Shown here: in pieces, positions 30,001 to 64,000 of the stretch | Layout of the letters: each line of letters starts with the position of its first letter | Position numbering within the stretch: the first letter of the stretch is position 1 | Origin: Mizuhopecten yessoensis | Taxonomy: Eukaryota | DNA length: 64,000 bases | Direction of reading: 5' to 3' | Assembly (NCBI RefSeq): GCF_002113885.1 | Contig: NW_018405514.1 | Location: forward strand, 280,297-344,296 | Position numbers: made by a program

Positions 30001-33000
30001 ATGTGATATCTTCACTGCATACAAGAACTAAAATAATGTAGTGTTCAACAGTGATGAAATAAAGTGGACTATTTTGTTACAATACAAAAGTGATACAGTT
30101 GTGGGATCGCACAACGTTACACGATGTGCGGTGTGCGCACGATGTGTGCACGATGGGCGAACGATAAAAAGCTGGACGATCATTGCTTGCGCACATCTGT
30201 GCGCACGATGGACGGACGTTGTGCGATAACAATCGTGGTTGGTGTAAATTGAGGAATGCCTTAATAATTTATACGGTTTCGTGTTTAAACATATAAACTT
30301 GATGTTTACGTATGTTTCTATATTCTAGCAACATCTATAAACTTATCTTTCTGTCTATACATTCTTATATTTAGAAATTGTGTTTTCTGTGTTTTTAAAC
30401 AAACTTAATCGACACATGTAAAATTACAACACAATCCCGTATACAGGTAAACATAACCACTTTGTACATGTACCTGGACCGTAGTTTTCTCCCCGCCTGG
30501 GGCACTTACGTAACTCGTCGGGTAAGGCCGGGGGTGTGAAAATCCAGGTGAAGGGGAGCCATAGGCAAACGAATGCAAATAACAAATACTATTCATTACG
30601 GTCAAACGGTATCGCATATCAGCTCTGTGTGTCAGGCACTGGTCAGGTAAAACTCCGGACACTCATAAAATTGTTATTTACCTGTTCTGTTACCTTGGAG
30701 CCAAACCCATTCTTGACAGCCTAACGGTCGCTGTAATACTGTGTAACACGCATTGTGAAATTGTATAATCTTGATTATTGTGATGAGAAATTACAGATAT
30801 ATACACAGTGTACATTATCGCATACAAGCCTTCCGTATTTTTGTCATTCCGTAATTTTGATCTACAAATGATACCAAATCGCACAGTTGTGCGGAGAGAA
30901 GCGCACAACGGGGCGAACGATTGCTAAATCGCACAGTTGTGCGCACCATGTGTGGACGATGTGCGGACGGTGTGTGAACGATGTATGCACGGTGTGCGCA
31001 CGCTATTTTTGGTGCGTTGTGCGGTCCCACAACTGTATGTGATTTTGACTTGAAATTAAATGTCTCACAATGTTATTTCACACTTGTGAAAATGTCAGAA
31101 AAATCTGCCATATTCGTGAAATATGTATGATATTGATAAACAAACCATTGAAAATCCTTGGTTTATAAACTGAAAATTGTTCAAATATAATGCTTAATGT
31201 TTAAGAGTTATACACTTACCCTGAAAAGAGGATGATGAGATCAGAAGAGGTCCTCCATTTCCTTCATGAACTGGTCGTAGGCGTCGTCCTTCGTCTTGGT
31301 CTGAGCTGCTGCTGAGGCTGGAGCTGCTACAGGAGCCAGGCCTAGTAGCCGCTTCTCCTCTTCTTTGCCTCCTATCATAAAAACACAACCATCAGTATTC
31401 ATTCTCACTTTAAACATGTAGGTCAAATTATACACTCTCAAATTTGTAGGATTTTTTATATTAATTCATAGATATTTTAACTCACTGTTTTATTTATCAG
31501 TATTAGGAGGTGAAATTCCAAATTGGTCTCATAGAATACCAAATTAGTCAACCTTGGGATTGCAGGCATCAAAAGGCAATGATTCTTACAGAAGGGAGAT
31601 AATCAGCACATTTGAACAAATACCTCAATTAAAGGGAAACAACCAACTATGGATTTTTTTCATTTTTACTTTAGAGACAGCTTTAATAATACAAATGTAT
31701 GGGTGGTGGGATCAACAATATTTTACCTTCTGTTTCTGATACCATTTCTAATAATTGGTTTGAAGCAAGTCTGTGAATAACTTACCCATAGGTTTGACAC
31801 GCCCCTTGGCGTCCCGCACTTCTCGCTTGACCTTGAGAGCTGTCGGTGTGAACCTTGTAACATCCCCCATCACATTCTTGATCTGAGGTTTGGCTTCGAT
31901 TGTAGCTGCGTTTTTCTTGTCGTCGCCGCCAGCCTTCTGGGGGAGTTTCATGATACTGGGAGGGGCACTGAGCACATTGGGATTCTGAGAAGCAATACCA
32001 GGAGGAGGCAAACCAGGGGGAAGTATGTTTAATGGCCCACCTGGTGGTCTCATTAATCTGGGCGGCAGTACACCTGGAGGAGAAGGGAAAGGTTCAGTCT
32101 GATATCTACATACTATCACATGACACTCCAATTAACTAATTGACACATAAATTCTCTTTCTGATTTTTCTCTCTCAAAGTTTTGTTGTATTCACTCTTTG
32201 AAGATCTGTTTTAAAAATAACATGATCATGTCAGTAAATTCCTGATAAAAAAAGGACATAACTCACATATAGTAAAGTAATAATAACAGTCTGTCATCTA
32301 TCAAGCCATGGATCACAGTTTATAGAACTGTTAAGACATTCAAATTACAAATTAAATCTGCAATCTTGAACAAACACATAAACTTATTATTCTGTTATTT
32401 CTCTGTTGATATTTCACATTAAGTAAACATCAAAACACCAGAACTCAATAAAAGTTATCTTTAAAAATATCCCTTGTTACACATTAATTGAGCACTTTAT
32501 ATACCAGAACACATAACAGATTTTTTACACTTCATTATGTTTAGGTATTTCAGGTGATGTGACCTCTTGTTTTCTGAATACTGTATGAGCATGGTTACCT
32601 GGTGGACCGGGCGGTAATCGTGGGGGCAGCCTGATGTTGGGAGGTAACCCAGGTGGCGGTCCAGGGGGAAGACCTTGAGGTCGACCTGGAGGAGGACCAG
32701 GGGGCATCATTCTTAGGGGTGCTCCTGGAGGTCCTCCTCGTAACATTGGGGGTCTGAACATCATGGGAGGGGCTCCTGAAGGGGGGCCTGAAGGAGATAA
32801 CAAAATATCATTACACACTACATATGCCATAATATGACAACACTATAGTCATTTCTGACAATAATTTTCAGAGCGTATTTCAATGTTCTTATCACTTCTT
32901 ACAGAAACATTTCAAATGGTACACAAATATGTATGTCATATTGCTAGGATGTACATACAGAATAAACATTTTACCCTATTTGTGACAATTTCAATGATGT

Positions 33001-63000: not shown

Positions 63001-64000
63001 ATTGTTTGTAAATAGGTTATATAACAATGAGTTTTAAATTGTTTGGTATAGTTAAAACGTATTGAAATACAGTTTATTTCAGTCAATTATTTGTATAACC
63101 GTGGATATATTGATACAATGCTAGATAGATAGCTGAATGTGTTCCCCCCATGGACAATAAGCCATAGGTAAACTATCAAGACATTTTACCACAAAACTGC
63201 ATTTCTAAAGTACCATTCTGACAGAATTTACGACTTTTTGACAACAAAAGTAACTAGTATTGACTATAAATTTGTGATTTTGTAAGATATTCTTTACATT
63301 TGAATGTTAAATGTGACAAATTTAAGAACAATTATGAATAGCATTAGAGAAAGATGGTCCACTCACCCTTGAAAAGAAAGACTGAGTACTCTCTAAAAGC
63401 TTTGTACGATGCCACCATACTCTGGAAGTTAGAATGAGCTAGATTTCCTGTATCCTCATCATATTGCCATTCTGCATTAACCAGTTGTAATCGGAATTTC
63501 AGGATAAGAGAAAAGATGTCCTGTATGATTTTCATCACTGCCCCAGCTTTCTTGTTCAGTAAGCATCTGCCATAAAATATATAAAAATATATCAATGCCA
63601 TATCAATCACCACAAACTAGATTCTGACTAATACACTTCAATATCTTGAATATGAATGTTAAAATTTGAATCCCTAACTACAAGCTTTTAAATTAAACGA
63701 ATCAAAATATCTTCATTCTTTGAGAATTTTAAAAATTTTGTACATAATCTTCAAAACAAGTAAATCTAAAACCTGGTTACAGCACTACAAAATGTTTACA
63801 AAAAGACATTCTCTTAAAAAGACCATGCACCAGCTAACAGTATCAACAGATAAGAATTTTGTGCATTTGAGAGCATGGTCTCAAAACCAAGTTGTGTGGT
63901 TGTACTGAGAGGCAGAGGGATTGGTATTCCTACCTGAATATGGCTTTATCTAGGTAGTTGGAGTGGACCTTATGTAGGTCATCAAGGTTGTGGACATCGC

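What the first reader, a model, noticed from the sequence alone, without database searches (positions are those of the whole stretch)
31241..64000. Splicing factor WBP11 sits next to its known target TUBGCP6, with EXOC7 between them
Seen: gene order WBP11(-), EXOC7(+), TUBGCP6(-), with ~17 kb between the putative WBP11 promoter and the TUBGCP6 stop. Established knowledge, from memory: in human cells WBP11 is required for splicing TUBGCP6 pre-mRNA and so for centriole duplication; Exo70 has been reported to bind PRP19 and influence splicing; the human genes lie on different chromosomes (12, 17, 22). Inference: this may be an ancestral or selected regulator-target micro-cluster. It could equally be chance within an ancestral linkage group.
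[Added by the scan's program, not by the reader: the finding's places include an assembly gap (unread letters, written N; its length is only estimated) at 40213 to 40625, 60638 to 61411. Whether the letters on both sides are continuous or in frame is not known: test that first.]
Basis: partly seen in the sequence, partly recalled or inferred. Interest (0 to 1): 0.7.

Follow-up and report, generated by a model that had tools for sequence, protein, structure and literature searches.

The report
WBP11, EXOC7, TUBGCP6 gene neighbours
A splicing-factor gene, an exocyst gene and the end of a microtubule-nucleation gene do lie side by side here, but nothing found shows the neighbourhood is more than ordinary, partly ancient, gene order.

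Summary
WBP11 lies on the minus strand, with its stop at 31241-31243 and recognisable exons up to 43043. EXOC7 lies on the plus strand, from about 47226 to its stop at 59336-59338. The last three exons of TUBGCP6 lie on the minus strand, with the stop at 62887-62889. Pfam and PDB matches identify all three genes exon by exon. The gap at 40213-40625 sits in a WBP11 intron, and no protein residues are missing across it. The gap at 60638-61411 is intergenic, so the EXOC7-TUBGCP6 adjacency rests on a scaffold join.

The regulator-target reading has no support. In human cells WBP11 loss affects 199 introns in 164 genes with no pathway enrichment. The two visible TUBGCP6 introns are not short and have normal donor sites. 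WBP11 acts in trans.

The WBP11-EXOC7 head-to-head pair is probably already published. Both genes are named in the legend of Fig. 5, conserved gene clusters, in Simakov et al. 2013. TUBGCP6 is not named there. A CpG-rich patch with outward-facing motifs at about 45.9-46.1 kb suggests a shared promoter.

No animal genomes could be searched here, so conservation of the TUBGCP6 adjacency remains untested. Interest is low.

The parts
31241..43043 (-). WBP11 gene, recognisable coding part: 11 exons plus the stop. The N-terminal coding exon was not found.
   Evidence: Pfam Wbp11 match. PDB chain 7abf_X matches. Phase-consistent splice junctions.
43012..43043 (-). WBP11 exon, 32 nt. It starts in phase 1, so an upstream coding exon must exist.
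   Evidence: Read from the sequence. Junction to 42373 (donor 8/9). Pfam gave no hit for its ORF. The assignment is by my reading.
42280..42373 (-). WBP11 exon
   Evidence: Pfam Wbp11, E 6.8e-5, profile positions 22-52 of 78. Junctions.
41807..41904 (-). WBP11 exon, the last one before the gap
   Evidence: PDB 7abf_X residues 64-99, E 1e-10. Donor after the residue aligned to 96.
40213..40625 (.). Assembly gap (413 N) inside a WBP11 intron. Not filled.
   Evidence: A 156-bp tandem repeat, 39778-40212, abuts it. The flanks share a repeat (score 76 against a shuffle maximum of 24). The exons on both sides are consecutive in the protein.
37408..37495 (-). WBP11 exon, the first one after the gap
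   Evidence: PDB 7abf_X residues 96-127, E 5.5e-4. Junction 41807|37495 is in phase 0.
35330..35471 (-). WBP11 exon within this ORF. Its 5' boundary is unresolved (35371 or further upstream). Proline-rich, then acidic.
   Evidence: ORF. Junction candidates. No Pfam hit. Assigned by my reading.
34668..34805 (-). WBP11 acidic exon. Its 5' boundary is unresolved (34769-34805).
   Evidence: No Pfam hit. Assigned by my reading.
33544..33929 (-). WBP11 exon with an Arg-Asp/Glu repeat
   Evidence: Tandem 12/18-nt repeat at 33548-33724. Only weak, unrelated Pfam hits.
33047..33224 (-). WBP11 proline-rich exon
   Evidence: No Pfam hit.
32599..32787 (-). WBP11 proline-rich exon. The acceptor is at 32775 or 32787.
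31786..32073 (-). WBP11 C-terminal conserved exon
   Evidence: PDB 7abf_X residues 492-593, E 2.2e-12. Junctions.
31241..31371 (-). WBP11 last exon with stop TGA at 31241-31243. The acceptor is unresolved (31311-31371).
   Evidence: No Pfam hit.
45200..46100 (.). Probable shared (bidirectional) promoter region of WBP11 and EXOC7: a patch where CpG is not depleted
   Evidence: CpG observed/expected is 0.9-1.6 here, against a window median of 0.28. Other such patches exist in the window, so this is suggestive only.
45877..45891 (-). Left arm of an outward-facing inverted pair. It faces WBP11.
   Evidence: 15 nt, 87% complementary, 166 nt between the arms. The shared 10-mer occurs only twice in the window, once per strand, against 0.027 expected.
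46058..46072 (+). Right arm of the inverted pair. It faces EXOC7.
47226..59338 (+). EXOC7 gene, recognisable coding part. About the first 70 residues were not found.
   Evidence: Pfam Exo70_C on 3 of 19 exon ORFs. PDB 2pft_A match. Junctions.
47226..47297 (+). EXOC7 first recognisable exon (boundaries approximate)
   Evidence: No Pfam hit. Assigned by my reading.
47640..47746 (+). EXOC7 exon (acceptor approximate, donor at 47746)
   Evidence: No Pfam hit.
48805..48922 (+). EXOC7 exon
   Evidence: No Pfam hit.
50207..50378 (+). EXOC7 exon (acceptor at 50207 or 50219)
   Evidence: PDB 2pft_A residues 88-149, E 1.8e-6. Junctions.
51286..51679 (+). Two doubtful small EXOC7 exons, within ORFs 51242-51376 and 51538-51708
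   Evidence: No Pfam hit. Weakly supported.
52500..52606 (+). EXOC7 exon
   Evidence: donor 8/9. No Exo70 Pfam hit.
52974..53078 (+). EXOC7 exon
53312..53431 (+). EXOC7 exon (donor approximate)
53790..53849 (+). EXOC7 exon
54131..54169 (+). EXOC7 exon
   Evidence: donor 9/9.
54535..54594 (+). EXOC7 exon
   Evidence: Pfam Exo70_C, E 0.056, profile positions 128-148. Junctions.
55079..55145 (+). EXOC7 exon
55674..55742 (+). EXOC7 exon
   Evidence: weak donor, 5/9.
56061..56181 (+). EXOC7 exon
   Evidence: Pfam Exo70_C, E 1e-9, profile positions 200-240. Junctions.
57378..57473 (+). EXOC7 exon
57953..58034 (+). EXOC7 exon (donor unresolved: 57983, 58034 or 58061)
58609..58650 (+). EXOC7 exon
59102..59338 (+). 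EXOC7 last exon with stop TAG at 59336-59338
   Evidence: Pfam Exo70_C, E 3.4e-23, profile positions 302-370 of 372..
60638..61411 (.). Assembly gap (774 N) in the tail-to-tail spacer between EXOC7 and TUBGCP6. Not filled.
   Evidence: The right flank starts with a 30/88-bp tandem repeat, 61412-61724. The flanks are not similar (score 24 against a shuffle maximum of 28).
62887..62978 (-). TUBGCP6 last exon with stop TAA at 62887-62889
   Evidence: PDB GCP6 chains, E 1.9e-9, ending at residue 1623 of 1625. Pfam GCP_C_terminal positions 282-309 of 309. Sequence..
63367..63566 (-). TUBGCP6 penultimate exon (200 nt)
   Evidence: PDB GCP6 chains only, E 4e-12. Pfam GCP_C_terminal, E 4.1e-5..
63934..64000 (-). 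TUBGCP6 third-last exon, cut by the window end
   Evidence: PDB GCP6 residues 1509-1529, E 0.064; the only two hits are GCP6. Its phase fits the next exon.

Best explanation
The interval holds three unrelated, single-copy housekeeping genes in a row.

WBP11 and EXOC7 lie head to head. There are 4,182 nt between their first recognisable coding exons. In the middle of that spacer are a patch where CpG is not depleted and a pair of outward-facing 10-mers. This is most likely one bidirectional promoter region. The pair is most likely the WBP11-Exoc7 linkage already pictured as a conserved metazoan gene cluster. Such linkages are usually explained by shared regulation of 5'-5' pairs, or by enhancers of a neighbouring developmental gene (here FoxJ would be the candidate) lying inside bystander genes.

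TUBGCP6 is a tail-to-tail neighbour of EXOC7. There are 3,548 nt between the two stop codons, including an estimated gap. Its own promoter lies beyond the window.

WBP11 protein is made in the cytoplasm and acts in trans in the nucleus on many pre-mRNAs. Linkage to one target gene therefore brings no mechanistic gain. The WBP11-TUBGCP6 proximity is best read as coincidence or as passively kept gene order.

Shown: gene identities, order, strands, distances, where the gaps lie, and the intron features. Inferred: the shared promoter, identity with the published cluster, and the absence of selection for the TUBGCP6 adjacency.
For: -
- Besides the three genes, 140 further ORFs of 50 aa or more in 31241-64000 gave only one Pfam hit, a BED zinc finger. 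The 139 ORFs of 20 aa or more in the divergent spacer gave nothing credible.
- Promoter lead: CpG observed/expected is 0.9-1.6 at 45.2-46.1 kb against a window median of 0.28. The inverted arms are at 45877-45891 and 46058-46072. Their shared 10-mer is found only twice, once per strand, against 0.027 expected.
- Published linkage: the Fig. 5 legend of PMC4085046 names Exoc7, FoxJ, MGRN E3 ligase, FAM100 and WBP11 among 12 genes of three conserved clusters. In goat the order is UBALD2, RNF157, FOXJ1, EXOC7 (PMC5348779). Four of those names are therefore one mammalian cluster.
- Irimia et al. (PMC3514665, passages read) explain conserved pairs by co-regulation, strongest for 5'-5' pairs, or by genomic regulatory blocks.
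- With 164 such genes among an assumed 12,000-20,000 genes, the chance that at least one of four neighbour slots holds one is 3-5%.
- The two visible TUBGCP6 introns are 367 and 388 nt, with donors at 7/9 and 8/9. This is like the WBP11 donors (7-8) and EXOC7 donors (5-9).
Against: - For TUBGCP6 specifically, random placement within two genes of WBP11 has a probability of only 1-3 in 10,000. The coincidence is small if the hypothesis is taken as prior rather than post hoc.
- TUBGCP6 was one of only 23-34 strongly affected human genes, and the only centrosomal one.
- No other animal genome could be examined, so a conserved TUBGCP6 adjacency is not excluded.
- I saw only the legend of Fig. 5, not its panels or Supplementary Note 7.2. 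That WBP11 and Exoc7 share a panel is therefore an inference.
- The CpG patch is one of several in the window.
- The first exons of both genes were not found, so the promoter is not pinned.
Confidence: 0.6

Rival explanations
1. All three genes belong to one ancient block. TUBGCP6 has been next to WBP11-EXOC7 since early bilaterians or metazoans. The adjacency was kept by slow rearrangement or by a regulatory landscape, for example that of FoxJ. It was lost in vertebrates, where the genes sit on three chromosomes.
For: - WBP11 and Exoc7 are named among published conserved clusters.
- That paper counts 469 bilaterian blocks against 157 expected by chance, and allows up to ten intervening genes. 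Blocks can therefore be larger than the genes drawn.
- The specific coincidence is improbable under random order.
Against: - TUBGCP6 has 0 occurrences in the main text of PMC4085046 and of PMC3514665.
- Searches for TUBGCP6 together with microsynteny or EXOC7 found no such report.
- FoxJ, MGRN and FAM100 were not detected in the window. No forkhead hit occurred among 130 ORFs of 52 aa or more in 1-31240 or among 140 ORFs in 31241-64000.
Confidence: 0.22
2. One reading: selection keeps the splicing factor gene near its target gene. They then share a chromatin domain and are expressed together, with EXOC7 (a Prp19 binder) as a third member.
For: - In human cells TUBGCP6 splicing falls by 48-89% on WBP11 loss, and an intronless TUBGCP6 partly rescues centriole duplication (PMC7039186).
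- Exo70 binds Prp19 and interferes with splicing (Dellago 2011, as cited in PMC7862454).
Against: - WBP11 acts in trans on 164 genes with no pathway enrichment.
- The dependence is shown only in human cell lines. A zebrafish study states that direct targets are still unknown (PMC13490766).
- The TUBGCP6 promoter is outside the window, and the gene is convergent with EXOC7, so no shared promoter is possible.
- In human the genes are on different chromosomes (my recollection), yet the dependence exists there.
Confidence: 0.05
3. The EXOC7-TUBGCP6 adjacency is an assembly artefact. The 774-N gap marks a wrong scaffold join, and TUBGCP6 is not really next to EXOC7.
For: - The flanks of the gap share no sequence (score 24 against a shuffle maximum of 28).
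- The right flank begins at once with a tandem repeat.
- No gene spans the gap.
Against: - Gaps beside tandem repeats are the usual product of correct scaffolding.
- The other gap in the finding is demonstrably a correct join.
- Nothing positive points to a mis-join.
Confidence: 0.08

Closest known systems
Conserved metazoan gene cluster with Exoc7, FoxJ, MGRN-type E3 ligase, FAM100 and (probably) WBP11: Simakov et al. 2013, Nature, Fig. 5 (PMC4085046; passages and legend read, figure and supplement not seen)
   Same: WBP11 and EXOC7 are direct neighbours here, as expected if they share a panel of that figure.
   Different: TUBGCP6 is not named there. FoxJ, MGRN and FAM100 were not found in this window. 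Which panel holds WBP11 is inferred, not seen.
Conserved ancient microsyntenic pairs explained by co-regulation of 5'-5' pairs or by genomic regulatory blocks: Irimia et al. 2012 (PMC3514665; passages read)
   Same: WBP11 and EXOC7 are head to head across a short spacer with one promoter-like patch. EXOC7 and WBP11 are multi-intron housekeeping genes of the bystander type.
   Different: Neither gene is named in that paper's main text. No conserved non-coding elements or expression data could be examined. The spacer between recognisable exons is 4.2 kb, not under 1 kb.
Human WBP11 to TUBGCP6 splicing dependence: Park et al. 2019/2020 (PMC7039186; passages read)
   Same: The window holds orthologues of both genes, including the 3' part of TUBGCP6 where the human retained introns lie.
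   Different: The relation is trans-acting, was shown in human cell lines only, and is one of 164 affected genes. The introns here are 367 and 388 nt with near-consensus donors.
True functional gene clusters: operons of bacteria and nematodes, and metabolic clusters of fungi and plants (my own knowledge)
   Same: Functionally linked genes lie close together.
   Different: There is no common transcript, because the strands alternate. There is no shared pathway step, and the regulator is a general spliceosome protein.

Membership tests
WBP11 orthologue | N-terminal Wbp11 domain (PF09429) | tested here: met
   One exon scores 23.6 bits, E 6.8e-5, covering profile positions 22-52 of 78. This is just under the 24.3-bit whole-protein cut-off because only one exon was scored. 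The next two exons match WBP11 chain residues 64-127. The exon for profile positions 1-10 or so was not found.
WBP11 orthologue | Proline-rich regions and a conserved C-terminal segment | tested here: met
   PDB 7abf_X residues 492-593, E 2.2e-12. Proline-rich ORFs at 32528-32842 and 32994-33374.
EXOC7 / Exo70 | Exo70 C-terminal domain (PF03081) through to the protein's end | tested here: met
   E 3.4e-23 (profile 302-370 of 372), E 1e-9 (200-240) and E 0.056 (128-148). 2pft_A residues 88-149. 16 of 19 exon ORFs gave no Exo70 hit on their own.
TUBGCP6 (GCP6, not another GCP) | GCP C-terminal (GRIP2) domain that matches GCP6 best | tested here: met
   All 5 hits are GCP6 (E 4e-12 to 3e-11). In one search GCP6 scores 1.9e-9 to 3.4e-8 against GCP5 at 0.7-0.8. 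Pfam GCP_C_terminal.
TUBGCP6 (GCP6, not another GCP) | Long GCP6-specific N-terminal and central parts | not testable with these tools
   They lie outside the window. Only the last three exons are present.
[quoted passage not shown] | The same linkage in a second, distant genome | tested here: inconclusive
   For WBP11-EXOC7 there are only the names in the Fig. 5 legend. For TUBGCP6 there is no report. No animal genome collection was available. Supplementary Note 7.2 is closed.
Bidirectional-promoter gene pair | Divergent transcription start sites less than about 1 kb apart | tested here: inconclusive
   The orientation is head to head. Outward-facing motifs lie 166 nt apart inside a CpG patch. 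The first exons and start sites are not identified.
Selected regulator-target cluster | Target introns of the WBP11-dependent type (short, weak 5' splice site) | tested here: not met
   The two introns visible are 367 and 388 nt, with donors at 7/9 and 8/9, like their neighbours. The rest of the gene is outside the window.
Selected regulator-target cluster | Co-expression, and WBP11 dependence of TUBGCP6 splicing in this species | not testable with these tools
   No expression data or experiments were available.
Selected regulator-target cluster | Adjacency conserved beyond neutral expectation | not testable with these tools
   Genome contigs holds only bacteria and archaea.

The most novel reading that the evidence does not exclude
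TUBGCP6 is a so far unlisted member of the deeply conserved WBP11-Exoc7-FoxJ neighbourhood. The block would then be a centriole- and cilium-themed regulatory domain. It would hold FoxJ (motile-cilia master regulator), EXOC7 (exocyst, ciliary membrane traffic), WBP11 (needed for centriole duplication) and GCP6 (gamma-tubulin ring complex). These would be co-expressed in dividing or multiciliated cells and kept together for that reason.
Probability: 0.06. Interest if true: 0.6.

Novelty: new member of a known kind. Interest (0 to 1): 0.2.

Why it matters
If the three-gene adjacency proved conserved and co-regulated, it would be a rare animal example of a splicing factor linked in cis to a sensitive target. 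It would also add a member to a published ancient gene cluster. As it stands the value is modest:
- a clean annotation of three genes;
- evidence that both assembly gaps fall outside coding sequence;
- a likely bidirectional promoter for WBP11 and EXOC7;
- a pointer that half of the 'cluster' is already in the literature.

Tried and rejected
I went on ORF by ORF.

2. Pfam on single exons is nearly blind. 1 of 10 WBP11 ORFs and 3 of 19 EXOC7 ORFs matched their family. The other exons rest on my reading of the translations and on phase-consistent splice sites.

3. First coding exons were not found.
   - Motif scans and start-codon/donor scans of 43-52 kb and Pfam on 139 spacer ORFs found neither the conserved WBP11 N-terminal peptide nor the first 70 or so residues of EXOC7.
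   - Candidates on the minus strand are an ATG at 45824-45822 followed by a 6/9 donor, and a 9/9 donor with last exon base 45540. Both are in the phase that the exon at 43043 needs. Neither is proven.
   - Single N letters at 44693 and 46828 lie where the exons are expected. They were left alone.

The junctions were then listed from coordinates alone.

5. I made no joined (spliced) protein and searched with none. All searches were exon by exon.

6. The 31 kb left of WBP11 was checked. 130 ORFs of 52 aa or more gave only artefact hits from tandem-repeat ORFs.

7. Rfam (gathering threshold) and the tRNA scan gave 0 hits.

8. The Dellago 2011 paper is not held, so it is cited second-hand.

9. Structure, complex and atlas tools were not used, because no claim here depends on them.

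10. The window is not taken for human. GC is 0.36, and the protein pieces are clearly diverged from the reference chains.

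
Full report
**What the window is**

The window is AT-rich (GC 0.36 overall, CpG observed/expected 0.37). It has many tandem repeats, short exons and introns of hundreds to thousands of bases. 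It is an animal genome and not human. The protein pieces are clearly diverged from the reference chains.

It holds four runs of N: 40213-40625 (413 N), 60638-61411 (774 N), and single letters at 44693 and 46828. None was filled or looked up.

**Gene identities**

I translated all six frames between stop codons. I searched candidate exons one at a time.

WBP11, minus strand:
- ORF 42269-42373 matches Pfam Wbp11 (E 6.8e-5, profile positions 22-52 of 78).
- ORF 41741-41920 matches the 641-residue chain named WW domain-binding protein 11 (7abf_X) at residues 64-99 (E 1e-10).
- ORF 37379-37522 matches residues 96-127 of the same chain (E 5.5e-4).
- ORF 31751-32131 matches residues 492-593 (E 2.2e-12).
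- The reading frame ends with TGA at 31241-31243. This is exactly the finding's start coordinate.

EXOC7, plus strand:
- Exo70_C matches ORF 59072-59335 (E 3.4e-23, profile positions 302-370 of 372), ORF 56018-56182 (E 1e-9) and ORF 54535-54621 (E 0.056).
- ORF 50167-50379 matches Exo70 chain 2pft_A at residues 88-149 (E 1.8e-6).
- The stop codon TAG is at 59336-59338.

TUBGCP6, minus strand:
- ORF 63347-63616 hit five distinct PDB sequences, all GCP6 (E 4e-12 to 3e-11).
- ORF 62890-63033 hit GCP6 at E 1.9e-9 to 3.4e-8, against GCP5 at 0.7-0.8. The match ends at residue 1623 of 1625.
- A 22-residue piece cut by the window's end matches GCP6 residues 1509-1529 (E 0.064). Its only two hits are GCP6, and the numbering is contiguous with the next exon.

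Pfam was blind to most single exons. 1 of 10 WBP11 ORFs and 3 of 19 EXOC7 ORFs matched. The remaining exons rest on my reading of the translations and on splice sites that keep the frame.

The organisms of the PDB chains are recalled, not given by the tool: human for 7abf and 6v6c, frog for 6tf9, mouse for 2pft.

**Layout**

- WBP11 has 11 recognisable coding exons between 31241 and 43043.
- EXOC7 has about 18 between about 47226 and 59338.
- TUBGCP6 has three in the window: 63934-64000 (cut by the window end), 63367-63566 and 62887-62978.
- WBP11 and EXOC7 are head to head, with 4,182 nt between their first recognisable exons.
- EXOC7 and TUBGCP6 are tail to tail, with 3,548 nt between their stop codons, 774 of them N.
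- The TUBGCP6 promoter is outside the window.
- No other gene was detected. 140 further ORFs of 50 aa or more in 31241-64000 were scanned. The other 38 of the 178 such ORFs had been scanned before. The only hit was one BED zinc finger in a WBP11 intron.
- 139 ORFs of 20 aa or more in the divergent spacer gave nothing credible.
- Rfam and the tRNA scan gave 0 hits.

**The gaps**

The gap at 40213-40625 lies in a WBP11 intron.
- The exon before it ends at the residue aligned to position 96 of the reference chain. The exon after it begins at 96/97.
- The junction is in phase 0.
- A 156-bp satellite abuts the gap. Related repeat sequence lies on both sides (score 76 against a shuffle maximum of 24).
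- No coding sequence is missing, and the join is sound.

The gap at 60638-61411 lies between two complete C-termini, so no frame is at stake.
- Its flanks share nothing (score 24 against 28 for shuffles).
- The right flank starts with a 30/88-bp tandem array.
- The EXOC7-TUBGCP6 adjacency, and hence the WBP11-TUBGCP6 proximity, therefore depends on the scaffold join. I rate a mis-join as unlikely but not excluded.

**The 5' ends**

The exon at 43012-43043 starts in phase 1 and has no start codon. An upstream coding exon must therefore exist. About 70 N-terminal residues of EXOC7 are also unaccounted for. Neither was found.

The spacer does hold a promoter-like patch.
- CpG observed/expected is 0.9-1.6 at 45.2-46.1 kb, against a window median of 0.28. 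Several other patches, mostly repeats, reach similar values.
- Inside the patch lie two 15-nt arms, at 45877-45891 and 46058-46072, 166 nt apart. They face outwards, towards WBP11 and towards EXOC7.
- Their shared 10-mer occurs nowhere else in the window. The count is 2, one per strand, against 0.027 expected.
- The core is of the ATGGCGG type. I recall this as the YY1-like element common near start sites of housekeeping and bidirectional promoters. That identification is from memory.
- On the minus strand there are two candidate ends for a first WBP11 exon: an ATG at 45824-45822 followed by one base and a 6/9 donor, and a perfect 9/9 donor with last exon base 45540. Both are in the phase the exon at 43043 needs.
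- The single N at 44693 and the single N at 46828 lie where the missing exons are expected. This was left unexamined.

**Is the adjacency meaningful?**

In Park et al. (PMC7039186, passages read):
- WBP11 loss in human cell lines retains 199 introns in 164 genes.
- 34 genes are strongly affected.
- TUBGCP6 is the only centrosomal gene among the 23 hit in all three conditions.
- The retained introns lie towards its 3' end.
- An intronless TUBGCP6 rescues only partly.
- Dependent introns are shorter and have weaker 5' splice sites.

PMC7862454 (passages read) cites Dellago 2011 for Exo70 binding Prp19 and interfering with splicing. The original paper is not held.

Against a selected cluster:
- The relation is in trans and broad.
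- It is known only from human cells. A 2026 zebrafish study says the direct targets remain to be found (PMC13490766).
- The one directly comparable feature here does not fit. The two 3' introns of TUBGCP6 are 367 and 388 nt, with donors matching 7 and 8 of 9 consensus positions. This is the same as the WBP11 donors (7-8) and EXOC7 donors (5-9).

Simple arithmetic gives the chance figures. The gene totals of 12,000-30,000 are my assumption.
- For TUBGCP6 specifically, the chance of lying within two genes of WBP11 is 1-3 in 10,000.
- The chance that any of the 164 dependent genes lies there is 2-5%.
- If some 150 splicing factors each had a target list of that size (also my assumption), several such coincidences per genome are expected.

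The hypothesis was formed after seeing the neighbours, so the larger figures are the fair ones.

**What is already known**

A search for WBP11, EXOC7 and synteny led to Simakov et al. 2013 (PMC4085046).
- The legend of its Fig. [quoted passage not shown] Among them are Exoc7, FoxJ, MGRN E3 ubiquitin ligase, FAM100 and WBP11.
- In goat the order is UBALD2 (FAM100B by my recollection), RNF157 (an MGRN1 paralogue by my recollection), FOXJ1, EXOC7 (PMC5348779). Four of the twelve names are therefore one cluster in mammals.
- WBP11 sits next to EXOC7 in this window. This makes it very likely, though not seen by me, that WBP11 is drawn in the same panel. The figure itself and Supplementary Note 7.2 were not available.
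- TUBGCP6 has no occurrence in that text, nor in Irimia et al. 2012 (PMC3514665).
- Searches pairing TUBGCP6 with microsynteny or EXOC7 found no report.

Irimia et al. explain conserved pairs either by co-regulation, strongest for 5'-5' pairs, or by regulatory blocks in which bystander genes carry enhancers of a developmental gene. The WBP11/EXOC7 pair fits the first by its orientation. It could fit the second if FoxJ is nearby, but FoxJ was not detected in the window.

**Verdict**

- An old linkage is likely for WBP11-EXOC7 and is already in print.
- The regulator-target idea has no support, and one feature tested against it.
- The TUBGCP6 adjacency is most likely coincidence or passively kept order.
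- The boldest reading still open is a centriole- and cilium-themed block around FoxJ that includes TUBGCP6. I give it about 6%.

Noticed in passing
window 62636-62940: A 61-bp tandem repeat (5.0 copies, 96% matches) starts inside the last TUBGCP6 exon. Copy 1 holds the last 17 codons and the stop. The following copies repeat them in the 3' UTR, each preceded by an acceptor-like pyrimidine-AG.
   Followed up: partly
window 38741-38923 (+), inside a WBP11 intron: An ORF with a BED zinc finger (E 3.2e-4, 21.1 bits against a 20.6-bit cut-off). It is probably a decayed hAT-type transposon or ZBED remnant. Four neighbouring ORFs gave nothing.
   Followed up: partly
window 44693 and 46828: Single N letters lie in the WBP11/EXOC7 divergent spacer, just where the missing first coding exons of the two genes would be expected. 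They may mark small joins in the assembly.
   Followed up: no
window 36244-37109 and 56220-56984: There are long minisatellites in introns: a 40-bp unit in 21.6 copies in WBP11, and a 43/84-bp unit in about 18 copies in EXOC7. Both give long spurious ORFs.
   Followed up: no
window 433-1074 and 6132-9653: Large tandem arrays. The second is about 3.5 kb and GC-rich (0.47). Their repeat ORFs produce misleading Pfam hits (SRF-TF, WD40, DUF937 and others) with no individually significant stretch.
   Followed up: yes
window 1-31240: No protein-coding gene was detected in the 31 kb beyond the 3' end of WBP11. 130 ORFs of 52 aa or more gave only repeat artefacts. Genes with short exons would have been missed.
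   Followed up: partly
window 33548-33724: WBP11 here carries a long Arg-Asp/Arg-Glu dipeptide repeat encoded by a 12/18-nt tandem repeat. By my recollection the vertebrate protein is acidic and serine-rich at that place.
   Followed up: no
window 29900-31200: A patch where CpG is not depleted (observed/expected up to 1.76) with a 22-bp repeat lies directly 3' of the WBP11 stop. Its nature is unknown.
   Followed up: no
window 51242-51708: Two doubtful small EXOC7 exons lie in the part of the gene that, by my recollection, is alternatively spliced in mammals. They have no family hit.
   Followed up: no
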